From the IMG/VR virus record IMGVR_UViG_3300014749_000041: a stretch of 9,626 nt of DNA. One strand, 5' to 3'. The notes under the pieces were generated by a model that was not told the origin of the DNA, did no database searches, and was given only the letters and a program-made list of their open reading frames with translations. Below are positions 488 to 9,626 of this stretch, piece by piece. The translations under genes and the position numbers were made by a program. Numbering within the stretch: position 1 is the first letter of the stretch; each line of letters starts with the position of its first letter. This DNA is from a virus (taxonomy: Duplodnaviria; Heunggongvirae; Uroviricota; Caudoviricetes).

Positions 488-1367
488 GCNNNNNNNNNNA
501 ACTGATGCATGCGCGGTCGTTGTCGATAACTTCTTTTTTTGCCCAGCGATGGATGCTGCCGTCAATGTTTCCGGCATCCACATCACTAGGCCAGAGAGCG
601 TAGGCCAGTTCGTCATCCAGTGTTTTCCATGTCTGCTTGTATTCGCGATGAATGGCAGCAATGACCGGGCTGATTTTTCCTGTTGAATTTTCAGTGTACT
701 GTTGATTGGCTCTGGCGCGGGCGAGATCAACAACAGACGTGTATTTTCCGGTTTCCTTGCGTTCACCTTCGCGACGTTTTTTCCAGATGCGCATCTCTGC
801 CTGAATTTCGGGCCATTTGGCACCAGGCTTACATTTATGCTTAACCCACCCGATGGCATGCAGCTTAAGCTCCGGATACATGGCGTTAACTTCTGGCATT
901 TTCATCAACGCTTCAACGATATGTCCGTCGAATGTTGCCATGTCTTCCTGCAACAATTCCTGCGCGCTAATCACCATATCAACGGTGATGTTTTCACATG
1001 TGTCGAACTTAACCATGACAGCGTTCTGTACTTCAGGGGCCAGCTTGTCAAAAGTGACGTTCATCGGATCGGATTCAGTCTCAACCGGGACAAAAGAAGC
1101 AGACTCCTCATCCCAGCGGTTTTCCTGCATATATTCAGCATCCCATGAATCGAGGGCAGGGCGGGGTATGCCAGGTTTATCCTCGCAGACAATAAATTTA
1201 TAAGCGCAGTCCTGAGCAGCCGGATAATGTTCCAGGAATTGCCAGTGAAATTTTGCTCGAGCACGGCGTTCGTCGCCAGCTTCAATGGCTGTGGCTACAG
1301 CCACAGCGCCTTCTTCCCTTGTTGCCAGTTCGTCAGGAATAGCGGCGCAAATAAAGACTTTACTCAT
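477..1367 (-). CDS. ydfE: YdfE-like prophage protein, N-terminal portion (function unknown)
   Basis: ATG at 1365-1367 (reverse complement) preceded by GAGG Shine-Dalgarno; product starts MSKVFICAAIPDELATREEGAVAVA…, matching my recollection of K-12 YdfE and its position after ydfD. As written the frame crosses N-run 490-499 and stops at 477-479; the true end is uncertain. Confidence 0.6.
   Translation of the reverse strand: MSKVFICAAIPDELATREEGAVAVATAIEAGDERRARAKFHWQFLEHYPAAQDCAYKFIVCEDKPGIPRPALDSWDAEYMQENRWDEESASFVPVETESDPMNVTFDKLAPEVQNAVMVKFDTCENITVDMVISAQELLQEDMATFDGHIVEALMKMPEVNAMYPELKLHAIGWVKHKCKPGAKWPEIQAEMRIWKKRREGERKETGKYTSVVDLARARANQQYTENSTGKISPVIAAIHREYKQTWKTLDDELAYALWPSDVDAGNIDGSIHRWAKKEVIDNDRACISXXXXQTA
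490..499. other. Run of 10 N (assembly/scaffold gap of unknown true length) inside the ydfE-like gene
   Basis: Literal N characters in the sequence; coding frames on the two sides are offset by one base. Confidence 0.9.
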
Positions 1368-1459
1368 TTGTTTTAACCTCATGACAGATTTAAGGATGAA
1401 CAAATCCCTGCCATTGCTGGCATATAAGAATGAAACCGGATATTTATTACGGAACTGTT

Positions 1460-1651
1460 TTAAAGACCTGCCGGGATTTCGATATTATCCTGGTGAATAA
1501 CTTTATCGACCGGGTAACAGTTACCGGGAATTTTCTGTTCGGTTGCTGCAGTCATACACTCCTGCATTGTCCTGTGAACACTGACTGCAATATCAACTGG
1601 CTCTCCGGAAACAAGAAAAACTGTCAGAACAAGCACAAATGCTGAATTCAT
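1460..1651 (-). CDS. ydfD: YdfD, small prophage lysis-associated protein (63 aa)
   Basis: 63-aa ORF MNSAFVLVLTVFLVSGEPVDIAVSVHRTMQECMTAATEQKIPGNCYPVDKVIHQDNIEIPAGL with hydrophobic N-terminus; its ATG overlaps the dicB stop (ATGA); length and order match K-12 Qin ydfD as recalled. Confidence 0.75.
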   Translation of the reverse strand: MNSAFVLVLTVFLVSGEPVDIAVSVHRTMQECMTAATEQKIPGNCYPVDKVIHQDNIEIPAGL

Positions 1652-1836
1652 TGTGCACATCCTTTTGGCATCAGACGTAAACGAGCCAGCATTGAAACAA
1701 TGCATATTTTATTTAATAGCTCCCGTTCTTGTTTTCTCTTGTTAATGGCATCTTCAGTAAATACAGGGTTACTGATAGTGACACCAATTTCAAAACAACC
1801 TTCAGACGTATTAACGTTTGGTAATAACGTTTTCAT
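1648..1836 (-). CDS. dicB: DicB, cell-division inhibitor (MinC-dependent), 62 aa
   Basis: 62-aa ORF MKTLLPNVNTSEGCFEIGVTISNPVFTEDAINKRKQERELLNKICIVSMLARLRLMPKGCAQ matches recalled DicB; lies downstream of dicF in the same operon. The 97-aa upstream extension in the ORF track was not used. Confidence 0.85.
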   Translation of the reverse strand: MKTLLPNVNTSEGCFEIGVTISNPVFTEDAINKRKQERELLNKICIVSMLARLRLMPKGCAQ

Positions 1837-2010
1837 TATCGCGTCCTCAACAATGAATTTTGTGATGCAGTGCCTGGTGCCTCCAGGTGACGTTAACCAG
1901 TTAACAATTAACGCCGGATACAGAGAATCCACCCATAACACTGTTTTTGGTTTTAACTGTTCCGCGTGCGCTCAGCCGCATTCACCACATCACAAAATTC
2001 ACTTTAAAAA

Positions 2011-2063
2011 GGGCGGCAGAGCAGTCACGGAGTAAAACTGATACCGCCAAACGTCACCAGAAA
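2011..2063 (-). ncRNA. dicF: DicF small regulatory RNA (ftsZ-targeting, Hfq-dependent sRNA)
   Basis: Reverse complement of 2011-2063 reads TTTCTGGTGACGTTTGGCGGTATCAGTTTTACTCCGTGACTGCTCTGCCGCCC, the 53-nt DicF sequence as I recall it, followed on the transcript by a U-run (TTTTTAAAGT). Sits between ydfC and dicB as in K-12. Confidence 0.8.
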
Positions 2064-2404
2064 ATTGATAACAGAGGGCGTTGCAGCGGGGTTGTCACTT
2101 AAGCGTATGGTCAACCTGACAACCCGGTGTCCTCAACGGGGGAAGGAATAACCCCGCCATACTTACCGCCGCGCCATTTCGCGGGTTGCCACAACCGGAA
2201 GCGCACGGTCGACGAAAATTTAACGACAGGCTATCTATGAACCAGCTACCTCGCCGTGCGCTTTCGCGTTATGGTCTGACTTTTCAGGGAAATATCCTTT
2301 CAGTAAACTGTCAGTGCCGGATGCTCACCCGTGTCCGGCGCACGCACTCCACCTCACCCGTGGAGAACTCCTTAATTACCAACCTTAGCTTCGTTGGTTA
2401 GCTA

Positions 2405-2623
2405 TTAACGCGGGTATGTAATCATTCTGGCAATGCTTAATGCCGCTGCTTTTTCCAGATTGGTGATATCCTGCTCCAGAGCGGACAGATTTTCAGCCTG
2501 CTTAGCCCTGGCTTCATTAGCCCATTTCAGATCCTGCGCTGCATTAATTTTCTGGCGCATCCACTCATAAAGTTCATCATCGGTATAGTCTGGCGCGATG
2601 ATGACGGGTTCTCGTTTCTGCAT
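2405..2623 (-). CDS. ydfC: YdfC, small prophage protein (72 aa)
   Basis: 72-aa ORF MQKREPVIIAPDYTDDELYEWMRQKINAAQDLKWANEARAKQAENLSALEQDITNLEKAAALSIARMITYPR; GAGGAA Shine-Dalgarno 5 nt upstream of the ATG; third gene of the ydfABC cluster. Confidence 0.8.
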   Translation of the reverse strand: MQKREPVIIAPDYTDDELYEWMRQKINAAQDLKWANEARAKQAENLSALEQDITNLEKAAALSIARMITYPR

Positions 2624-2652
2624 ACTGATTCCTCGCGGTGCTGTTTCGCTTA

Positions 2653-2781
2653 TCAGCCGTTAGATTTTGCCGAACTGGAAAGCGCCTGTTTAAACTCACT
2701 GAAGCTGAGAGCTTCTTCGCCTTCGGCAAGGCCTTCGAAGTATTCTTCGTAAGCCTTTTCCATGATTGTGTCAAAATCCAT
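2653..2781 (-). CDS. ydfB: YdfB, small prophage protein (42 aa)
   Basis: 42-aa ORF MDFDTIMEKAYEEYFEGLAEGEEALSFSEFKQALSSSAKSNG starting 1 nt after the ydfA stop. An in-frame upstream ATG at 2823 would give 56 aa but overlaps ydfA, so the short form is preferred. Confidence 0.65.
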   Translation of the reverse strand: MDFDTIMEKAYEEYFEGLAEGEEALSFSEFKQALSSSAKSNG

Positions 2782-2782
2782 A

Positions 2783-2938
2783 TCACTCACCTGAGTTTCT
2801 TTCCAGCCAGCGACGGGCACCATTTTCGGTTTTAAACGTTTTGCTTTTGGTATACGTCATTGCGGTGAACGTGCCGTCCTGGTTTGGAAACACGCCGTAC
2901 ACCAGAGATTCGTTGTTGCCAAGATCGATAGTATCCAT
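2783..2938 (-). CDS. ydfA: YdfA, small prophage protein (51 aa)
   Basis: 51-aa ORF MDTIDLGNNESLVYGVFPNQDGTFTAMTYTKSKTFKTENGARRWLERNSGE with GAGGT Shine-Dalgarno 4 nt upstream; first gene downstream of dicA in the same orientation. The longer 77-aa start at 3016 was rejected. Confidence 0.7.
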   Translation of the reverse strand: MDTIDLGNNESLVYGVFPNQDGTFTAMTYTKSKTFKTENGARRWLERNSGE

Positions 2939-3015
2939 GCTGACCTCATTTCCCCTTAACGCTGGGGTAGCGGAACTGTTTGCTGAGAACACCGTGCGGT
3001 GTGTTGATGCAAACA

Positions 3016-3072
3016 AGATTAGCCATGACTAACATATCGGTCAAGTGATTTTGTATGCTATAGCTAACATAA
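3016..3072 (-). promoter_or_regulatory. Candidate promoter/operator of the ydfABC-dicF-dicB operon (dicB promoter, DicA-repressed)
   Basis: On the minus strand: -35 TTGACC (plus 3039-3044), 17-nt spacer, -10 TAATCT (plus 3016-3021). The spacer contains ATGACTAACA (3025-3034), identical to a 10-mer in the dicA-dicC operator palindrome; a related GCTATAGCTAACATAA sits at 3057-3072. Confidence 0.3.
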
Positions 3073-3082
3073 TTGATGTGGT

Positions 3083-3113
3083 AAAAGATAACTCATTGAT
3101 GATGTTATCTTTT
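3083..3113 (-). terminator. AT-rich hairpin overlapping the dicA stop codon (possible weak terminator or binding site)
   Basis: Inverted repeat AAAAGATAAC (3083-3092) / GTTATCTTTT (3104-3113) with 11-nt loop, followed on the dicA transcript by a short U-run. The stem is AU-rich, so termination efficiency is doubtful. Confidence 0.2.
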
Positions 3114-3512
3114 ATTTGTCCGCTGACGGGCTTTTAGTAATTCTTCAAAGAGTTTATTGAAGTTTTTTACTCGAGCTCGCATTTCGGCGAGCTGGGTATC
3201 CTGTTCTGATTCTGGCAGTGCATTAAACAGCTCAAGGAGCTCTAGTTCTTTGGGGGATAAGGCAACTGGCTTCTCAACAGGTGGTGTTGGTTGCTTGTCT
3301 TCATCGCCAAATAGAATCCATGTTGGTGAGCATTGCAATACTTTGCTGAGGGCAAAAAGGTTCTTCCCTGTAGGTTCACTATCACCCCGTTCCCATTGTG
3401 ATACAGACACATGGGAGATTTTCAGGGCTTTAGCAAGAGACCTTTGGGTGTGTTTGAGGTTTTTCCGACGATACCTGATGCGTTCGCCGATAGTTAAATT
3501 TTTTGTTTCCAT
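3105..3512 (-). CDS. dicA: DicA, HTH (XRE/cI-like) repressor of the dic division-inhibition operon
   Basis: 135-aa ORF METKNLTIGERIRYRRKNLKHTQRSLAKALKISHVSVSQWERGDSEPTGKNLFALSKVLQCSPTWILFGDEDK…; classic HTH_XRE signature (QxxLAxxLxxSxxxVSQWERG); divergent from dicC. Confidence 0.9.
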   Translation of the reverse strand: METKNLTIGERIRYRRKNLKHTQRSLAKALKISHVSVSQWERGDSEPTGKNLFALSKVLQCSPTWILFGDEDKQPTPPVEKPVALSPKELELLELFNALPESEQDTQLAEMRARVKNFNKLFEELLKARQRTNKR

Positions 3513-3595
3513 AGTTAGCTAATGCTAAATCGTATTGACTATGTTTTTGTTAACATCTATCTTGTTAGTTATGACTAACAATAAAGGTGTTTTAA
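3513..3595. promoter_or_regulatory. dicA-dicC divergent promoter/operator region
   Basis: 83-bp intergenic region with perfect palindrome TGTTAGT-TATG-ACTAACA (3563-3580), self-complementary TTAGCTAA (3515-3522) and TGTTAACA (3548-3555). Candidate dicC promoter: -35 TTGACT 3535-3540, -10 TATCTT 3558-3563; AAAGGTG Shine-Dalgarno before dicC ATG. Confidence 0.5.
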
Positions 3596-3826
3596 ATGCT
3601 TAAAACTGACGCTCTTTTGTATTTCGGTTCAAAAACAAAACTTGCACAAGCAGCAGGTATTCGTTTGGCTTCGCTTTATAGCTGGAAAGGGGATTTAGTT
3701 CCCGAAGGTCGCGCGATGCGTCTACAGGAGGCATCTGGCGGGGAGCTTCAGTATGATCCCAAAGTTTATGATGAATATCGTAAGACGAAGCGGGCGGGGC
3801 GTTTGAACAATGAAAATCACTCCTGA
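3596..3826 (+). CDS. dicC: DicC, Cro-like small regulator
   Basis: 76-aa ORF MLKTDALLYFGSKTKLAQAAGIRLASLYSWKGDLVPEGRAMRLQEASGGELQYDPKVYDEYRKTKRAGRLNNENHS, divergent from dicA; matches recalled DicC length and sequence. Confidence 0.85.
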   Translation: MLKTDALLYFGSKTKLAQAAGIRLASLYSWKGDLVPEGRAMRLQEASGGELQYDPKVYDEYRKTKRAGRLNNENHS

Positions 3827-4331
3827 ACAGGCTCGTGAGGCTCTGGATGCCTGGATATGTCGACCAGGAATGACACAGGAGCAGGCGACGATATTAATCA
3901 CTGAAGCATTCTGGGCTTTGAAAGAGCGCCCGAACATCGATGTTCAGCGTGTCACATATGAAGGTGGCGCGATTGATCAGCGAGCGCTTGGCGTTAATCG
4001 AGTGAAGATATTCGAACGCTGGAAGGCTATCGACACCAGGGATAAGCGTGAAAAGTTCACGGCGCTAGTGCCTGCAATTATGGAGGCTATCCGGATTAAT
4101 GATTTCAGGTTGTATCGTGAAATTACTGACGGAAAAAGCATCACGTGCATGATCGCCGGGTTAAACAAAGAATATGGCGATGTGGTGGAGTCCGGACTGC
4201 TTTTTGCTGATCCTGCCGTAGTGGATCGTGAAACTGACGAACTTATAGAAAAAGCAATTGCTTTCAAACTTGCGTATCGACAGCAATACCAACAAAAAGC
4301 TGGATGGAATTATGAGCCTTCTTTTTGCTGA
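3810..4331 (+). CDS. YdaT-family (CII-position) prophage regulatory protein, 173 aa
   Basis: ATG at 3810 overlaps the dicC 3' end by 17 nt. It occupies the cII position after the cro-like gene and loosely resembles Rac YdaT as I recall it (…WKAIDTRDKREKFTALVPAIMEAIR…). Family assignment is from memory and position only. Confidence 0.6.
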   Translation: MKITPEQAREALDAWICRPGMTQEQATILITEAFWALKERPNIDVQRVTYEGGAIDQRALGVNRVKIFERWKAIDTRDKREKFTALVPAIMEAIRINDFRLYREITDGKSITCMIAGLNKEYGDVVESGLLFADPAVVDRETDELIEKAIAFKLAYRQQYQQKAGWNYEPSFC

Positions 4332-5277
4332 ACGCCCACTGGTTATAAACACGCAGCTGGCAATGAAAATTGGCTTAAACGAAGCCATTGTTTTGCAACA
4401 ACTGCACTACTGGTTGAGAGATACCAACTCCGGCATGGAATGTGATGGTGTTCGCTGGATTTACAACACAACGGAACAATGGCTGGAACAGTTCCCATTC
4501 TGGTCAGAGTCAACGTTAAAGCGCGCGTTTGCAAGTCTGAAAACGCTGGGGCTTTTGCGTTGTGAAAAGCTCAATAAATCAAAGCGCGATATGACCAATT
4601 TCTACACGATCAACTATGGGAGCGAGCTTTTAGATGGTGGCAAATTGAGCGAATCCATCGGTTCAAAATGCGCCGCTCCATCAGGTCAAAATGACACGAT
4701 GGAAGAGGTCAAAATGAAACGCTCCATTGGTTCAAAACGACCCAATGTCATCGGGTCAAAATGGCCTGATGATCTTACAGAGAATACAACAGAGATTACT
4801 ACAGAGAATAAAAACACTTTTCGTCCGGAAGCTTCGCAACCGGACCCGCAGACGACTGAACAGGATTTTTTAACCCGGAACTCCGACGCGGTTGTGTTTA
4901 GTGCGAAAAAACGCCAGTGGGGTAGCAGGGAGGATTTGGCGTGTGCGCAGTGGATCTGGGGGCGGATCGTGGGTCTCTACGAACAGGCAGCCAGTGATGA
5001 TGGCGAGATCATGCGACCAAAAGAGCCTAACTGGACTGCCTGGGCCAATGACGTGCGCACAATGCGGATGCTGGATGGCAGAAGCCACAGACAAATTTGC
5101 GAAATGTTTGGTCGGGTTCAGCGAGATCCATTCTGGGTAAAAAACATCATGAGCCCGTCAAAGCTCCGCGAAAAATGGGACGAACTGGTCATCCGCCTGG
5201 GACGTTCACCTGTACAGCGTTGTGTTAATCATATTTCTGAACCGGATACAGAAATTCCGCCTGGTTTCAGAGGATAA
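4312..5277 (+). CDS. Phage replication initiator (O-like) with DnaT-like C-terminal domain; contains the origin iterons
   Basis: ATG at 4312 overlaps the preceding stop by 20 nt; the TTG at 4258 in the ORF track was not used. C-terminus …VNHISEPDTEIPPGFRG resembles the E. coli DnaT C-terminus (…VSEPDSQIPPGFRG) as recalled. The mid-gene linker is encoded by a direct-repeat array. Confidence 0.75.
   Translation: MSLLFAERPLVINTQLAMKIGLNEAIVLQQLHYWLRDTNSGMECDGVRWIYNTTEQWLEQFPFWSESTLKRAFASLKTLGLLRCEKLNKSKRDMTNFYTINYGSELLDGGKLSESIGSKCAAPSGQNDTMEEVKMKRSIGSKRPNVIGSKWPDDLTENTTEITTENKNTFRPEASQPDPQTTEQDFLTRNSDAVVFSAKKRQWGSREDLACAQWIWGRIVGLYEQAASDDGEIMRPKEPNWTAWANDVRTMRMLDGRSHRQICEMFGRVQRDPFWVKNIMSPSKLREKWDELVIRLGRSPVQRCVNHISEPDTEIPPGFRG
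4655..4765 (+). repeat. Iteron array (five direct repeats of about 11 bp, 22-24 bp spacing) - candidate replication origin
   Basis: Cores GGTTCAAAATG (4660-4670), GGTCAAAATGA (4684-4694), GGTCAAAATGA (4707-4717), GGTTCAAAACG (4729-4739), GGGTCAAAATG (4753-4763); spacing is close to two helical turns. Located inside the initiator gene as in ori-lambda. Confidence 0.65.
4777..4812 (+). repeat. Three tandem A-rich 12-mers next to the iterons (candidate DNA-unwinding element)
   Basis: ACAGAGAATACA (4777-4788), ACAGAGATTACT (4789-4800), ACAGAGAATAAA (4801-4812), immediately 3' of the iteron array. Confidence 0.5.
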
Positions 5278-5317
5278 GTGTTGATTTCAGGTCATGAGGT
5301 AATTTTAAGGGGGACTT

Positions 5318-5740
5318 GTGGCAAAAGTTTTTACACAAGAAGAGCGGGAAAAAATTAAATGGCAGGTGGTGGAACTCGTGCGCCAGAGCGGCCGTGAGAC
5401 GTTACGGCAACTGGAAGCTAAAACAGGTGCGACTAGATATCTGATGAGCGTTCTTGCCAGAGAGCGGGTAGCCAGTGGCGATGTATACAACTCCGGCTAC
5501 GGGTTATTCCCCTCTGAACAGGCGCGTAAGGACTGGCAAAACGCCCGCAAAAAACTCTCGAGGGCAAAGGTGAAGAAACCTGCTGTGGTTGATCCGGACC
5601 TTATCTGGTCATCACCTGACGGAGAAATACGTCGCTACGACAGTCGCCTAAACATAATCTGTCGCGAGTGCCGGAAGAGCGAAGTTATGCAGCGCATACT
5701 GGCTTTCTATCAGGGTAATTTTCAGGACGTGGCGCAGTGA
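5318..5740 (+). CDS. Ren-like protein (lambda Ren family), 140 aa
   Basis: GTG start at 5318 with AAGGGGG Shine-Dalgarno 4 nt upstream. C-terminal …ICRECRKSEVMQRILAFYQG resembles lambda Ren (…KECRQSAAMKRVLAVYGV…) as recalled; it follows the replication gene as ren follows O/P in lambda. Confidence 0.6.
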   Translation: MAKVFTQEEREKIKWQVVELVRQSGRETLRQLEAKTGATRYLMSVLARERVASGDVYNSGYGLFPSEQARKDWQNARKKLSRAKVKKPAVVDPDLIWSSPDGEIRRYDSRLNIICRECRKSEVMQRILAFYQGNFQDVAQ

Positions 5741-6093
5741 GTGCACCGGCAACCATTCTTGATATGTGCTGTGGCAGCCGCATGTTCTGGTTCGATAAGT
5801 CTGACGAACGGGCGATATTCAGCGATATCAGAAAAGAAGGATACACATTACGCAATGGGAGACGCTTGATTATCAGCCCTGACATTATCGCAGATTTTCG
5901 TGCATTATCATTTGCAGACGCATCTTTTTCGATGGTTGTATTAGACCCTCCGCATCTTGAGAGTGTTGGTGATAACGCCTGGATGGGAAAGAAATATGGA
6001 CGGCTGAATAAAGATGCCTGGCGTGATGATTCGCGACAGAGATTTAAAGAAGCCTTTCGGGTGTTGAGGCCGCACGGCGTTCTGATTTTTTAA
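5737..6093 (+). CDS. SAM-dependent amino-methyltransferase (DPPH motif), probably C-terminally truncated
   Basis: GTG start overlaps the upstream stop (GTGA). Motif I-like ILDMCCGSRMF, acidic beta-2 IFSDI, motif IV VVLDPPH and beta-5-like RVLRPHGVLIF are present. The ORF stops at TAA 6094-6096 but the same frame continues WNETQIPVSQILALTDRKPVICQRTGKKR. Confidence 0.55.
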   Translation: MSAPATILDMCCGSRMFWFDKSDERAIFSDIRKEGYTLRNGRRLIISPDIIADFRALSFADASFSMVVLDPPHLESVGDNAWMGKKYGRLNKDAWRDDSRQRFKEAFRVLRPHGVLIF

Positions 6094-6515
6094 TGGAATG
6101 AAACGCAAATACCGGTAAGCCAGATTCTGGCACTGACAGACAGAAAACCTGTTATCTGTCAACGAACAGGGAAAAAACGATAAAACCCACTGGATTATTT
6201 TTATGAAAGAGGCATCCAGTGAGTAGATTCGTAAGGCTACAGATACGTATATCTGAATAATTAAATTCAGTTCTGTAAATAAAATTTAATCCTTAACCGG
6301 ATGGATTTCTGCACCCTCAGAACATCAGGAGGCCGCCCGAAAGGGCGGTAGTGAAATGCGAAAGTTCAAAATTATTATTGAAACGGGAATAGCTGGTGGA
6401 GATTTTGAGGATGTATTCGAAGTGGACGATGACGCAACACCTGAGGAAATTCATGACGGAGCATAAGAAATTTTCTTTAACTACTGCAATTACTCATACC
6501 ACGAAATAAAAGACG

Positions 6516-6707
6516 ATGAGGAAGAACAAAGTGGCTGATTTTTGTTCAGCTAAATATAACATCAGTTTTGAAGAGCGGGATGAACTATTAATGGACTATG
6601 GTGAGTTACGCGGTGGAAGTGCTGCTGATGTCGAATCCTAGCGTGATGACTATGAAGCGGGAAAAACTCCGGTCGAAGCATATTGTGATGAGTGGGGCGA
6701 TGAATGA
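6516..6707 (+). pseudogene. Small ORF interrupted by an in-frame amber codon (TAG 6639-6641)
   Basis: MRKNKVADFCSAKYNISFEERDELLMDYGELRGGSAADVES-TAG-RDDYEAGKTPVEAYCDEWGDE-TGA; protein-like on both sides of the stop, weak ribosome-binding site. Confidence 0.25.
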
Positions 6708-6990
6708 GCGAGATTAATTATCAGGAAGGGCATGAAACGGCGGGGCAAGCAAAACCAGTGGCATGGCGATATCGCTACGTGAAAAAAGGCGTTACGGACT
6801 TTCAGGGGAAGTAGTGGTCTGGTGACTGGAAATATGTACCGAAAAAAGAGGATTGTAACGACAGGCCGAACTATCAAATTCAGGCCTTATTCACTGCCTC
6901 ACCAGTCCCAGTTACATCAGAAGAACTGGTTAAAGCTGTGCACTTTTATGAACAACTAAAACGCGAAAATCCACCAACATCCGGCAACTA
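6704..6990 (+). pseudogene. ORF of about 93 codons interrupted by an in-frame amber codon (TAG 6812-6814)
   Basis: MSEINYQEGHETAGQAKPVAWRYRYVKKGVTDFQGK-TAG-WSGDWKYVPKKEDCNDRPNYQIQALFTASPVPVTSEELVKAVHFYEQLKRENPPTSGN-TAG. The downstream 56 codons have no start codon of their own; GGGG SD-like element 7 nt upstream of the ATG. Confidence 0.3.
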
Positions 6991-7245
6991 GATTAATGGA
7001 TTAACTATGTCGGTTAAACGACCAGCCAACTGAAAAAGCGGAAACCTGATTACAGGTTGCCAGATAAGGCAATGAGCTACCTGGCGCGGAACGGACTGAT
7101 AAGTATGGGGAATGTTTTACGATGAACCTTTAGACTAAAGAGTTTGTAACGCTATGTAAGTGATTTTTTCTGGTTTAGATATTTATATGTCCGGCCAAAT
7201 TGAGGTGTGTTTAAATGTAATTGCACATTGATTGTAGGAGGAATA

Positions 7246-7425
7246 ATGAAAAACGCATTGCAGTTTTTGTTTGTTGCGTTCTGGTTGTTCGCATCATGTA
7301 TGCCCATCATCTTCACAGCAAGGTATATGGAAAAAGTTGATGTTTTGATATTAATATTTGGATATATAAATGCCCTTTTTTTAGGGGTGTTCATGGCGGT
7401 CATGTGCATTGAATACTGGCGGTAA
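7246..7425 (+). CDS. Small hydrophobic protein, two predicted transmembrane helices (59 aa), function unknown
   Basis: Consensus AGGAGG Shine-Dalgarno (7236-7241) 4 nt before the ATG; MKNALQFLFVAFWLFASCMPIIFTARYMEKVDVLILIFGYINALFLGVFMAVMCIEYWR has two hydrophobic segments; AT-rich codon usage unlike neighbours. Confidence 0.5.
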   Translation: MKNALQFLFVAFWLFASCMPIIFTARYMEKVDVLILIFGYINALFLGVFMAVMCIEYWR

Positions 7426-7480
7426 ATACAGCGAACTCCATTGGTTTAGTTGGATATTTACTGTGCTGGACAAAAACGGT

Positions 7481-7508
7481 TTGCGGGGAAATCTTAGTTA
7501 AGTAGAAT
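7481..7508 (+). promoter_or_regulatory. Candidate hok mRNA promoter
   Basis: -35 TTGCGG (7481-7486), 16-nt spacer, -10 TAGAAT (7503-7508). The implied start lies just before GGTGCTTGAGGCTATCTGCCTC, which resembles the 5' end of plasmid R1 hok mRNA (GGCGCUUGAGGCUUUCUGCCUC) as recalled. Confidence 0.3.
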
Positions 7509-7683
7509 GACTGCGGGTGCTTGAGGCTATCTGCCTCGGGCATGGACACCAACGGCAGATAGAGAAAAGCCCCAGTTAACATTACGCGTCCTGCAAGACG
7601 CTTAACATTAATCTGAGGCCAATTTCATGCTAGACACATGTAGGTTAGCCTCTTACGTGCCGAAAGGCAAGGAGAAGCAGGCT

Positions 7684-7725
7684 ATGAAGCAGCAAAAGGC
7701 GATGTTAATCGCCCTGATCGTCATC
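7684..7725 (+). CDS. hokD: Hok-family toxin (HokD/Gef-like), 5' fragment only - cut after codon 14 by the N-gap
   Basis: AAGGAG Shine-Dalgarno then ATG; MKQQKAMLIALIVI matches the HokD (RelF) N-terminus as recalled. The upstream leader resembles the hok/sok leader (GGTTAGCCTCTTAC…AAGGAGAAGCAGGCT ATG). The ORF is interrupted by N-run 7726-7735. Confidence 0.7.
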
Positions 7726-7735
7726 NNNNNNNNNN
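7726..7735. other. Run of 10 N (assembly/scaffold gap) inside the hok ORF
   Basis: Literal N characters; the 15-mer GGAGAAGCAGGCTAT occurs on both sides (7671-7685 and 7738-7752). Confidence 0.9.
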
Positions 7736-7752
7736 ACGGAGAAGCAGGCTAT

Positions 7753-9490
7753 TGTTAACACCAAGCTGTAATGTCCCCTTTGAACCATTCTAAAATGTCC
7801 CCAGACAATTCTCTGGGGGATTTTTCATGATCAAAGAGACTGTTACGATGAGTCATAAGGAACTCCACCGACTTCAGATTATTCAGGAACAAGCTGCGGC
7901 ACGCATTGGCATTTCTATTCGGCAGGTTAAACGTCTGGTGCAACGGTATAGAAATGAAGGGCCTTCTGGTCTGGTTTCCCACCGACGTGGAAAGCGTCCT
8001 AATAATTCCTTTTCTACTGAATTCAGAGCAACAGTAATTTCACTCCTCAAAGGCCGTTACGCTGATTTTGGACCTACGTTTGCGTGCGAAAAATTGCGCG
8101 AGATACACGGTTTATCTTTATCCGTTGAAACTCTCAGAAAGTGGATGATAGAAGAGGGGTTATGGCGTGAACGCCGTCGTAAAATTGCCCGTATATATCA
8201 ACGCCGCATGCGACGACCATCTTACGGTGAACTGATCCAGATTGATGGCTCACCTCATGACTGGTTTGAAAATCGAGGCCCCAGATGTACACTGATCGTT
8301 TTCATTGATGATGCCACCAGTGCGTTGATGGCGTTGCGTTTTGTGCCTGCTGAAACAACCCGGGCTTACATGGAAACCCTCCGGGGTTACCTTAATGATC
8401 ATGGCGTACCGCTCGCTCTCTACTCTGATAGACACAGTATATTCAGGGTAAATAACCCAGAGCGGGAAGGTGAGCTGACCCAGTTCACTCGTGCGATAAA
8501 GACACTGGGCATCGAGCCAATCCATGCCAACAGCCCGCAGGCAAAAGGGCGGGTAGAGCGCGCCAATCAGACACTACAGGACAGGCTGGTCAAAGAAATG
8601 CGGCTTCAGAATATCAGTGATATTGAAACAGCAAATGCATGGTTGCCGACCTTTATTGAAGCCTATAACAACCGGTTCGCTACGTCGCCTCGTACTACTG
8701 ATAATGCTCATCTTGATGTGCACCATTCTGAAGAGGAACTGGGTTATATCTTCAGCCTACAGGCGAAGCGCGTTCTGTCTAAAAATCTCACTTTCCAGTA
8801 CAAAAGCAGTGCGTTTCAGGTACGCAGTGAGGGCCGGGGATATCGACTTAGGCATTCGGTTGTTACTGTATGCGAGAACTTTGACGGTGAAATTAACGTT
8901 CTGTATGACGGGAAAGCGCTGGGCTGGGAAAAGTATGTTGATGGCCCGGAGCCTATACCACTGGATGATGAAAAGAGTGTCCATGAACGAGTGGATAATG
9001 CCCGTATTGATTTACGCTCAAAATACTATGTTAAACCTAAAGCTGACCATCCCTGGCTTACGCGCCGAACGCAAAGTCATCAGCAAGTTAAGCCCCCGAA
9101 GTTACCTAAAAAGAAGCCTGATCCCGATAAAAAAGATTGAAACCAAGATCGATTCGGTTGAGTGCATATCCATTCATAGGGTAGATTCTTAAGTCGCGTT
9201 TCTGGTGTTCATTTTCGGGTGGTTTGTTACTTGTTTTACCGGGGATATGCCAGAAACGCGCTGAGTCAGTCTGGGCGGTGCGCGTAATGAGGCGTTATGG
9301 TAAATAGCCTATGCTAATGTCCGCTAAGAGCAAGAAGCGGAAGTTGGCAGTTTTGTGGACTGTCCCCACAAAAGTGACTACAGAAATAGTTGCAATTCAT
9401 AATTGATCATGGGTTGTCAGTTAAACTCGTGGCGATTTAAATAGACTAATTGGGAGTGCGTCCATTACTTATATCTTGTAATGTTAACTA
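7753..9490 (+). mobile_element. Insertion-sequence-like element carrying the transposase (boundaries not resolved)
   Basis: Similarity to the hok region stops at 7752 and the next bases begin TGTTAACA…. A matching terminal inverted repeat was not found; only a weak TGTTAAC-like match near 9482-9489. Both ends are approximate and the element may extend beyond the window. Confidence 0.25.
7827..9140 (+). CDS. DDE transposase with integrase-core (rve-type) catalytic domain and N-terminal HTH; IS481/ISNCY-like
   Basis: 437-aa ORF with GGGGGA SD-like element 5 nt upstream. N-terminal HTH-like IGISIRQVKRLVQRY; catalytic candidates QIDGS, LYSDRHSIF and GRVERANQTLQ with D-(about 65)-D-(about 38)-E spacing; basic C-terminal tail. 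Family assignment is by motif only. Confidence 0.85.
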   Translation: MIKETVTMSHKELHRLQIIQEQAAARIGISIRQVKRLVQRYRNEGPSGLVSHRRGKRPNNSFSTEFRATVISLLKGRYADFGPTFACEKLREIHGLSLSVETLRKWMIEEGLWRERRRKIARIYQRRMRRPSYGELIQIDGSPHDWFENRGPRCTLIVFIDDATSALMALRFVPAETTRAYMETLRGYLNDHGVPLALYSDRHSIFRVNNPEREGELTQFTRAIKTLGIEPIHANSPQAKGRVERANQTLQDRLVKEMRLQNISDIETANAWLPTFIEAYNNRFATSPRTTDNAHLDVHHSEEELGYIFSLQAKRVLSKNLTFQYKSSAFQVRSEGRGYRLRHSVVTVCENFDGEINVLYDGKALGWEKYVDGPEPIPLDDEKSVHERVDNARIDLRSKYYVKPKADHPWLTRRTQSHQQVKPPKLPKKKPDPDKKD

Positions 9491-9626
9491 TCAGAAATGA
9501 TACAAAGATAATATGTCTTTAAAGAAAAGGCTGATGGCGAAAAGTGGCCCGATGAGGGAGCCTGTTCAGGATTCTGTGTAAATACCTTTTCTCAGAAGTG
9601 GCCGGCCCAGGGGGCACCGAAACCCG

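What the first reader, a model, noticed from the sequence alone, without database searches (positions are those of the whole stretch)
6094..6990. Run of protein-like frames each interrupted by a single in-frame stop codon (two amber, one ochre)
The methyltransferase frame continues as protein-like sequence past TAA 6094-6096. The frame from 6516 continues past TAG 6639-6641, and the frame from 6704 past TAG 6812-6814, where the downstream 56 codons have no start codon. Three adjacent genes each hit by a nonsense codon rather than by indels is unusual. The simplest reading is pseudogenisation of a nin-like region, but stop-codon suppression or sequencing error cannot be excluded from the sequence alone.
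Basis: seen in the sequence. Interest (0 to 1): 0.45.

Follow-up and report, generated by a model that had tools for sequence, protein, structure and literature searches.

The report
Decayed genes in Qin cryptic prophage
The in-frame stop codons are real, but they are ordinary mutational decay of four small, dispensable phage genes in the Qin-type defective prophage of E. coli; automatic annotation already flags most of them as pseudogenes, and nothing points to stop-codon read-through.

Summary
The window is the early-right ("nin-like") part of a Qin-type cryptic lambdoid prophage of E. coli: dicB/DicF/dicA/dicC, ydaT-like, O-like, DUF977, then the finding.

The stops are real. The 1.4-kb stretch is 100% identical in many independently finished E. 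coli genomes, and each stop replaces a sense codon of intact homologues:
- methyltransferase TAA, at 6091-6093 (not 6094-6096), = AAA
- gene B TAG 6639-6641 = TGG
- gene C TAG 6812-6814 = CAG/CCG

So "nonsense rather than indels" is wrong. Five stops among about 50 missense differences is close to the neutral expectation of about 3.

In the sampled IMG/VR copies the lesions travel as one haplotype, none of the 34 full-length copies has a stop reverted, and further lesions are polymorphic. No tRNA gene is present.

Verdict: already-known pseudogenisation of a silent cryptic prophage. Sequencing error is excluded and suppression is very unlikely. Low interest.

The parts
5737..6224 (+). Phage DNA-methyltransferase pseudogene (intact homologues 157 aa). 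It has a premature TAA at 6091-6093 (AAA Lys in homologues) and a +1 G insertion near 6169 that shifts the frame. The restored frame ends at TAG 6225-6227.
   Evidence: Alignment to the intact O111:H8 gene (L013 2001-2474) and an Stx2c phage. The repaired protein matches phrog_954 over residues 4-161. PGAP calls the sister copies 'frameshifted; internal stop', but annotates the 118-aa stub 5737-6093 as a CDS.
6356..6538 (+). DUF7167 pseudogene (intact 60 aa). It has a premature TAA at 6464-6466 (AAA Lys in homologues).
   Evidence: Alignment. Pfam PF23768 at 9.9e-14 and phrog_1997 at 1.6e-29 both align across the stop. PGAP: 'DUF7167 family protein, internal stop'. IMG/VR sample: AAA 101, TAA 38.
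6531..6707 (+). Gene B pseudogene (intact 58 aa, phrog_519, function unknown). The start codon is changed from ATG to GTG at 6531, and there is a premature TAG at 6639-6641 (TGG Trp in homologues).
   Evidence: Alignment. Nine lineage-specific missense changes, including a conserved Trp to Arg. phrog_519 at 1.6e-13 aligns over residues 1-58. IMG/VR sample: TGG 80, TAG 34, TAA 1.
6704..7125 (+). Gene C pseudogene (intact 171 aa, phrog_660, function unknown). Lesions: TAG 6812-6814 (CCG/CAG/ATG and other sense codons in homologues), a 90-bp in-frame deletion between the ENPP/DNPP repeats at 6967/6968, a second TAG at 6989-6991 (CAG in homologues), and a 4-bp deletion (TGGT) at 7022/7023. The original stop is TGA 7123-7125.
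   Evidence: Alignment to intact 171-aa genes from IMG/VR loci L204, L155 and L160. phrog_660 matches the N-terminal part in one frame and the peptide 7021-7122 in another. PGAP: 'frameshifted; internal stop'.
3105..3826 (.). Immunity region dicA (3105-3512, - strand) and dicC (3596-3826, + strand). It places the decayed genes downstream in the rightward early operon of a Qin-type prophage.
   Evidence: Annotation of matching records. Both ORFs are intact in the window.

Best explanation
Four small accessory genes between the replication genes and the Q antiterminator of a Qin-type cryptic lambdoid prophage of E. coli have become pseudogenes through ordinary point mutation and small deletions. 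They are a DNA methyltransferase, a DUF7167 protein and two proteins of unknown function.

Shown:
- The prophage can be identified from its flanking genes.
- Each stop replaces a sense codon of intact homologues.
- Frameshifts, a deletion and a start-codon change sit alongside the stops.
- The lesions form one fixed haplotype, found in many E. coli genomes and in a Shigella flexneri genome.

Inferred:
- In a prophage that no longer propagates as a virus, and whose rightward early operon is kept off by the DicA repressor, these genes give the host no benefit.
- Purifying selection therefore lapsed and mutations accumulated neutrally.
- The stops terminate translation, giving at most short non-functional stubs.
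For: Identity of the region: flanking genes are dicB, DicF, dicA, dicC, ydaT-like, O-like, DUF977, then flxA, relBE, hokD and ydfT. K-12 annotates the locus as 'cryptic prophage Qin'.

The sequence is real: the 1.4-kb stretch is 100% identical in many independent complete genomes, including W, ATCC 8739, IAI39, 042 and CE10. 375 genomes carry at least 80% of it.

Sense codons at each stop: AAA, AAA, TGG, CAG/CCG and CAG. In an IMG/VR sample the sense alleles are the majority at three of the four positions scored (79 AAA: 41 TAA; 101 AAA: 38 TAA; 80 TGG: 35 stop). At the gene C codon TAG is the commonest single codon (58 of 133).

Other lesion types are present in the same genes: a +1 insertion, a 90-bp deletion, a 4-bp deletion and ATG to GTG.

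The lesions are linked: the commonest complete combination was TAA/TAA/TAG/TAG in 33 loci. All four gene-C lesions co-occur in 41 copies.

Decay continues: none of 34 full-length copies has a stop reverted, while new lesions are polymorphic (TAG to TAA, delG 6788, insA 6781). Polymorphisms are 20 missense to 11 synonymous, somewhat below the roughly 3:1 neutral ratio.

Relaxed constraint on this lineage: dN between the window and intact homologues is about 2-5 times that among intact homologues.

Stop count fits neutral decay.

PGAP already labels these genes as pseudogenes.

The region is dispensable: K-12 MG1655 has deleted window 4090-8955 entirely.
Against: - dN/dS between the window and intact homologues is still well below 1 (0.10-0.35). 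This is expected, because most of that divergence predates inactivation, but the time of inactivation cannot be dated.
- Polymorphisms downstream of the stops are 5 missense to 6 synonymous. The count is too small to exclude residual constraint.
- PGAP annotates the 118-aa methyltransferase stub as an ordinary CDS. Whether it is made or does anything was not tested.
- Silencing by DicA is taken from knowledge of the Qin immunity region and was not tested here.
Confidence: 0.93

Rival explanations
1. Stop-codon read-through or suppression: the genes are still expressed as full-length proteins because TAG/TAA are read through at low level or by a suppressor tRNA, as proposed for conserved in-frame stops in prokaryotes (Belinky et al. 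2021, PMC7918605).
For: The stops are conserved in hundreds of genomes and none has reverted in the sampled copies. Downstream sequence is still recognisably homologous. The downstream polymorphism ratio of 5 missense to 6 synonymous is not clearly neutral. Phage 606R7 carries TAG at the same Trp codon of gene B in another haplotype.
Against: - Two of the five stops are TAA, the most efficient terminator in E. coli (established knowledge).
- The methyltransferase and gene C also carry frameshifts, and gene C a 90-bp deletion, which read-through cannot repair.
- No tRNA gene is in the window or in six related loci.
- TAA and TGA end intact genes in the same window, for example dicA, ydfC and the O-like gene with TAA.
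- Conservation of the stops matches the near-identity of the whole prophage among strains, about 1-2 differences per kb outside the recE-like segment.
- New frameshifts are polymorphic within the haplotype.
Confidence: 0.03
2. Sequencing or assembly error: the stops are artefacts of this one assembly.
For: The window comes from a record with two runs of 10 N (490-499 and 7726-7735), so it is not a flawless sequence.
Against: Window 5700-7100 is 100% identical in many independent finished genomes sequenced by different laboratories. The same four stops occur in a roughly 1%-diverged sister haplotype and in a Shigella flexneri genome.
Confidence: 0.005
3. Adaptive inactivation: knock-outs of these phage genes were positively selected in the host (for example because a phage methyltransferase or small early proteins are harmful when leaky) rather than fixed by drift. 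This would explain one stop early in each gene.
For: Every one of four adjacent genes is inactivated, while the upstream dicA, dicC, ydaT-like, O-like and DUF977 genes are intact. If only the 'excess' missense changes are treated as neutral-phase, five stops are marginally more than expected (lambda about 2, P about 0.05).
Against: - With all missense changes counted, the stop number is unremarkable (lambda about 3, P about 0.2).
- The gene-C lesions are shared with lineages in which A and B are intact, so the lesions did not arise as one event.
- Each gene has accumulated several lesions and many missense changes, the pattern of long neutral decay.
- K-12 simply deleted the region.
- No toxicity data exist for these genes.
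Confidence: 0.04

Closest known systems
Cryptic (defective) prophage Qin/Kim of Escherichia coli, as annotated in K-12 MG1655 and reviewed for its decay in PMC6379469
   Same: Same locus content and order: recE-like exonuclease, ydfD, dicB, DicF, ydfC/B/A, dicA, dicC, then flxA. Identity to MG1655 over the shared parts is 99.4-100%. It is a defective prophage in which point mutations, IS fragments and deletions are already documented.
   Different: The window carries the 4.9-kb stretch (4090-8955) that MG1655 has lost between ydfX and ydfW. The pseudogenes studied here are therefore absent from the K-12 reference, although they are present and annotated in many other E. coli genomes.
Intact accessory-gene cassette (DUF7167 / phrog_519 / phrog_660) of lambdoid phages and prophages, e.g. 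Escherichia phage vB_EcoS-689R5 and IMG/VR prophages L204, L155 and L160
   Same: Same three genes in the same order with overlapping start and stop codons. Nucleotide identity is 88-93%.
   Different: In those elements the genes are open (60, 58 and 119-171 aa). In the window each carries at least one premature stop, and gene C also carries two deletions.
Conserved in-frame stop codons interpreted as read-through events (Belinky et al. 2021, PMC7918605)
   Same: In-frame TAG at a position where orthologues have CAG or TGG, conserved among related genomes.
   Different: Here the stops come with frameshifts, deletions and elevated dN in a defective prophage. There is no evidence of maintained constraint downstream.

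Membership tests
Qin-type cryptic lambdoid prophage of E. coli | dicA-dicC immunity region with the dicB operon, including the DicF sRNA | tested here: met
   DicF RF00039 scores 76.7 bits at 2011-2062(-). dicA and dicC ORFs are intact. The annotation of matching records names dicA, dicC, dicB and ydfA-D.
Qin-type cryptic lambdoid prophage of E. coli | Near-identity and synteny with the region annotated 'cryptic prophage Qin' in K-12 MG1655 | tested here: met
   Window 601-4089 and 8956-9558 align to MG1655 1,646,757-1,650,844 at 99.4-100%.
Qin-type cryptic lambdoid prophage of E. coli | Defectiveness (cannot produce phage) | not testable with these tools
   Only pseudogenes and IS fragments are seen in this window. 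A 48.7-kb record with 99.9% identity is deposited as 'Escherichia phage PhiR42_1', but whether it is inducible is not known from the record.
Pseudogene (non-functional remnant of a protein-coding gene) | Homology to intact genes extends across the disabling lesion | tested here: met
   Profiles and alignments span every stop and frameshift.
Pseudogene (non-functional remnant of a protein-coding gene) | Disabling lesions correspond to sense codons or an intact frame in functional homologues | tested here: met
   AAA, AAA, TGG, CAG/CCG and CAG at the five stops. The +1, -4 and -90 bp indels are absent from intact genes.
Pseudogene (non-functional remnant of a protein-coding gene) | Relaxed selective constraint | tested here: inconclusive
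   dN on the window lineage is 2-5 times that among intact homologues. Polymorphisms are 20 missense to 11 synonymous. This fits relaxation, but the numbers are small and recombination confounds the polarity of changes.
Pseudogene (non-functional remnant of a protein-coding gene) | No full-length product made | not testable with these tools
   Needs proteomics or ribosome profiling.
Programmed stop-codon read-through / suppression or recoding | A suppressor tRNA or reassigned code in the element or host | tested here: not met
   No tRNA gene in the window or in six related loci. Intact genes of the window end in TAA or TGA.
Programmed stop-codon read-through / suppression or recoding | The frame is otherwise intact, so that read-through yields a full-length protein | tested here: not met
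   The methyltransferase and gene C also have frameshifts, and gene C a 90-bp deletion. This feature is met only for the DUF7167 gene and gene B.

The most novel reading that the evidence does not exclude
The DUF7167 gene and gene B each have a single stop and no indel. They might still be expressed at low level by natural read-through, or as split peptides, and be kept for a host or prophage function. The recurrence of TAG at the same Trp codon of gene B in an unrelated phage haplotype (606R7), and the hypervariable codon 37 of gene C (seven different sense codons plus TAG), might then reflect repeated stop-to-sense switching of the kind Belinky et al. proposed.
Probability: 0.03. Interest if true: 0.4.

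Novelty: already known. Interest (0 to 1): 0.08.

Why it matters
It matters little. The result documents normal decay of accessory genes in a well-known defective prophage, and reference annotation already flags it.

The practical value is negative: these stops should not be taken as evidence for recoding or suppression, and they are not errors to be "fixed" in assemblies.

The 118-aa "class I SAM-dependent methyltransferase" CDS that PGAP calls in many E. coli genomes is a truncated remnant and should be treated as a pseudogene.

Tried and rejected
- Suppressor tRNA: ARAGORN found none in the window or in six related loci.
- Known RNA elements: Rfam at gathering threshold gave only DicF and sok, both outside the finding.
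- Promoter and terminator scan of 5600-7300: nothing beyond shuffle expectation that bears on the stops.
- Excess of nonsense mutations: not significant.
- Special conservation of the pseudogene stretch: rejected. The whole prophage differs by only about 1-2 sites per kb between strains outside the recE-like segment.
- Sequencing error: rejected, given many identical independent genomes.
- Genetic-code reassignment: rejected, because TAA and TGA terminate the intact genes of the same window.
- Species-representative genomes: the scan found the cassette only in a Shigella flexneri genome (same four stops) and in a contig labelled as a Collinsella MAG (sense codons at the two positions that could be scored). 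This gave no deeper outgroup.
- Not run, because homology and annotation already settled the question: the large protein searches, structure prediction and fold search.

Full report
**Where the window comes from**

The window is the early region of a Qin (Kim)-type cryptic lambdoid prophage of Escherichia coli. Window 5700-7100 matches many complete E. coli genomes at 100% identity, among them W, ATCC 8739, IAI39, 042 and CE10. In all, 375 genomes carry at least 80% of the stretch.

The annotation of a matching record gives the gene order:
- recE-like exonuclease, ydfD, dicB, ydfC, ydfB, ydfA, dicA
- dicC, a YdaT-family gene, an O-like replication gene, a DUF977 (LygF) gene
- a methyltransferase, a DUF7167 pseudogene, a hypothetical pseudogene
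- an ISNCY transposase fragment, ydfW, flxA, ydfV, relBE, hokD, rem, ydfU
- the antiterminator ydfT

Rfam finds DicF at 2011-2062(-) and a sok RNA at 7515-7689(+).

In K-12 MG1655 the locus is annotated "cryptic prophage Qin". MG1655 lacks window 4090-8955, a deletion between ydfX and ydfW.

The finding lies between the replication genes and the Q-type antiterminator.

**Check of the observation**

The methyltransferase TAA is at 6091-6093, three bases upstream of the stated 6094-6096.

All three frames continue as real homologous coding sequence past the stops:
- The repaired methyltransferase matches phrog_954 (DNA methyltransferase) over residues 4-161.
- Gene B matches phrog_519 over residues 1-58.
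- Gene C matches phrog_660.

1. A fourth interrupted gene. The DUF7167 gene (6356-6538) has TAA at 6464-6466. Pfam PF23768 and phrog_1997 both align across it.
2. The true start of gene B. It begins at 6531, not 6516. Homologues have ATG there and the window has GTG.
3. The true extent of gene C. Intact homologues are 171 aa. Relative to them the window has TAG 6812-6814, a 90-bp in-frame deletion between the ENPP/DNPP repeats at 6967/6968, a second TAG at 6989-6991 and a 4-bp deletion at 7022/7023. The ancestral stop is TGA 7123-7125.
4. A frameshift in the methyltransferase. It carries a +1 G insertion near 6169 in addition to the TAA.

The region therefore holds five nonsense codons, three indels and one altered start codon in four adjacent genes. 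The premise "nonsense rather than indels" does not hold.

**What stands at the stop positions in intact homologues**

| Stop in window | Gene | Homologue codon | Homologues used |
|---|---|---|---|
| TAA 6091-6093 | methyltransferase | AAA (Lys) | intact 157-aa gene of an O111:H8 strain; an Stx2c phage |
| TAA 6464-6466 | DUF7167 | AAA (Lys) | five intact homologues |
| TAG 6639-6641 | gene B | TGG (Trp) | four of five homologues |
| TAG 6812-6814 | gene C | CAG or CCG | three homologues of the intact type |
| TAG 6989-6991 | gene C | CAG (Gln) | intact 171-aa genes |

I scanned IMG/VR for the sequence around two of the stops and then scored all four main positions in the roughly 200 loci returned:
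- methyltransferase: AAA 79, TAA 41
- DUF7167: AAA 101, TAA 38
- gene B: TGG 80, TAG 34, TAA 1
- gene C codon 37: TAG 58, CCG 42, ATG 14, CAG 9, CTG 5, TGG 3, GCG 1, TCG 1

The stops are linked. The commonest complete combination was TAA/TAA/TAG/TAG, in 33 loci. TAA in the methyltransferase and DUF7167 genes, and TAG in gene B, were never seen in this sample alongside a sense codon at any other scored stop position.

The gene-C lesions form their own linked set (41 copies with all four). That set also occurs in lineages whose DUF7167 gene and gene B are intact. The gene-C lesions therefore did not arise in the same event as the stops in those two genes.

**Is this more than chance?**

Between the window lineage and the unanimous state of intact homologues I counted 43 synonymous, 46 missense and 3 nonsense differences in the parts that could be polarised. 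The gene-B TAG and the second gene-C TAG were not scored by that rule.

For these coding sequences, random substitutions give about 4.5% nonsense. That is about 0.063 nonsense per missense change.
- If all 46 missense changes were neutral-phase, about 3 stops are expected against 5 observed (Poisson P about 0.2).
- If only the roughly 30 "excess" missense changes are counted, the expectation is about 2 (P about 0.05).

There is therefore no convincing excess.

dN between the window and intact homologues is 2-5 times that among intact homologues. The effect is clearest in gene B (0.07-0.085 against 0-0.03), as expected under relaxed constraint.

**State of the haplotype in the population**

I compared 34 full-length copies that are at least 97% identical.
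- There are two sub-haplotypes about 1% apart, and both carry all the stops.
- None of the 34 copies has a stop reverted.
- New lesions are polymorphic: TAG to TAA at 6641, a G deletion at 6788 in 7 copies, and an A insertion at 6781 in 2 copies.
- Polymorphisms in the repaired frames are 20 missense to 11 synonymous, somewhat below the roughly 3:1 neutral ratio.

The perfect identity of the 1.4-kb stretch among distant strains is not special. Outside the recE-like segment, the whole prophage differs by only about 1-2 sites per kb between the window and the other records.

A Shigella flexneri genome carries the same four stops.

**Rivals**

Sequencing error is excluded by the many identical independent genomes.

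Suppression or read-through is very unlikely:
- The lesions include two TAA codons.
- Two of the genes also carry frameshifts, and one of those a 90-bp deletion as well.
- No tRNA gene is in the window or in six related loci.
- Intact genes in the same window terminate with TAA or TGA.

Belinky et al. (PMC7918605) argue that some conserved in-frame stops in prokaryotes reflect read-through. Their criterion, maintained purifying selection, is not shown here.

Adaptive inactivation cannot be excluded, but nothing requires it.

**Mechanism**

Shown:
- These are remnants of four phage accessory genes.
- They are disabled by several independent lesions each, except the DUF7167 gene and gene B, which have one stop each (gene B also has a changed start codon).
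- The lesions are fixed as one haplotype in a widespread defective prophage.

Inferred from established knowledge of Qin and lambdoid immunity:
- The genes sit in the rightward early operon that the DicA repressor keeps silent.
- In a prophage that no longer replicates as a virus, selection on them is lost, so they drift.
- The truncated ORFs yield at most short stubs.

PGAP already annotates the DUF7167 gene and gene C as pseudogenes, and the methyltransferase too in sister copies. The finding is therefore already known and of low interest.

Noticed in passing
window 490-499 and 7726-7735: Two runs of exactly 10 N. The second sits inside a hok-like ORF. Its left flank (7670-7725) is 100% identical to the start of hokD elsewhere in Qin, and about 15 bp (GGAGAAGCAGGCTAT) is repeated on both sides. 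This looks like a scaffold join or masking at a repeat, not biology.
   Followed up: partly
window 7515-7689 (+): A full-length sok antitoxin RNA (RF01794, 114 bits) with a hok/mok-like reading frame beside it, immediately upstream of an ISNCY transposase fragment. This is a second hok/sok-type locus in this prophage, besides hokD.
   Followed up: no
window 2011-2062 (-): DicF small RNA (RF00039, 76.7 bits), in its usual place between ydfC and dicB.
   Followed up: no
window 4090-8955: This 4.9-kb stretch is missing from K-12 MG1655, where ydfX abuts ydfW. It contains the 3' part of the ydaT-like gene, the O-like and DUF977 genes, all four pseudogenes, sok/hok and the transposase fragment. The K-12 'genes' ydfX and ydfW are deletion-junction remnants.
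   Followed up: partly
window 6812-6814 (gene C codon 37) and IMG/VR loci L015-L230: This codon is hypervariable among homologues: CCG 42, ATG 14, CAG 9, CTG 5, TGG 3, GCG 1, TCG 1 and TAG 58. That is unusual for a single codon in an otherwise conserved small protein.
   Followed up: partly
L006 (Escherichia phage vB_EcoM-606R7), gene B, locus about 1880-1890: This phage record has TAG at the same Trp codon of gene B as the window, but in a different sequence context and with the DUF7167 gene and gene C intact. It is either an independent TGG-to-TAG change or a small recombination patch.
   Followed up: no
window 5737-6093: PGAP annotates the 118-aa N-terminal stub of the methyltransferase as an ordinary 'class I SAM-dependent methyltransferase' CDS (WP_001310834.1) in many genomes. 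Yet it lacks the last 39 residues of the intact 157-aa protein, and the same gene is called a pseudogene in sister copies.
   Followed up: partly
L002 (PV340562.1, Escherichia phage PhiR42_1 from ECOR13): A 48.7-kb record deposited as a complete phage genome carries the same pseudogene haplotype at 99.9% identity, together with dicB, relBE and hokD. It appears to be a Qin-type prophage region rather than a demonstrably viable phage.
   Followed up: no
L232 (JAIHTM010000290.1, labelled Collinsella sp. MAG): A 3-kb contig binned as Collinsella (Actinomycetota) is 89% identical to this E. coli prophage cassette, with sense codons at the two stop positions that could be scored (DUF7167 gene and gene C). 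It is probably a mis-binned enterobacterial phage contig.
   Followed up: no
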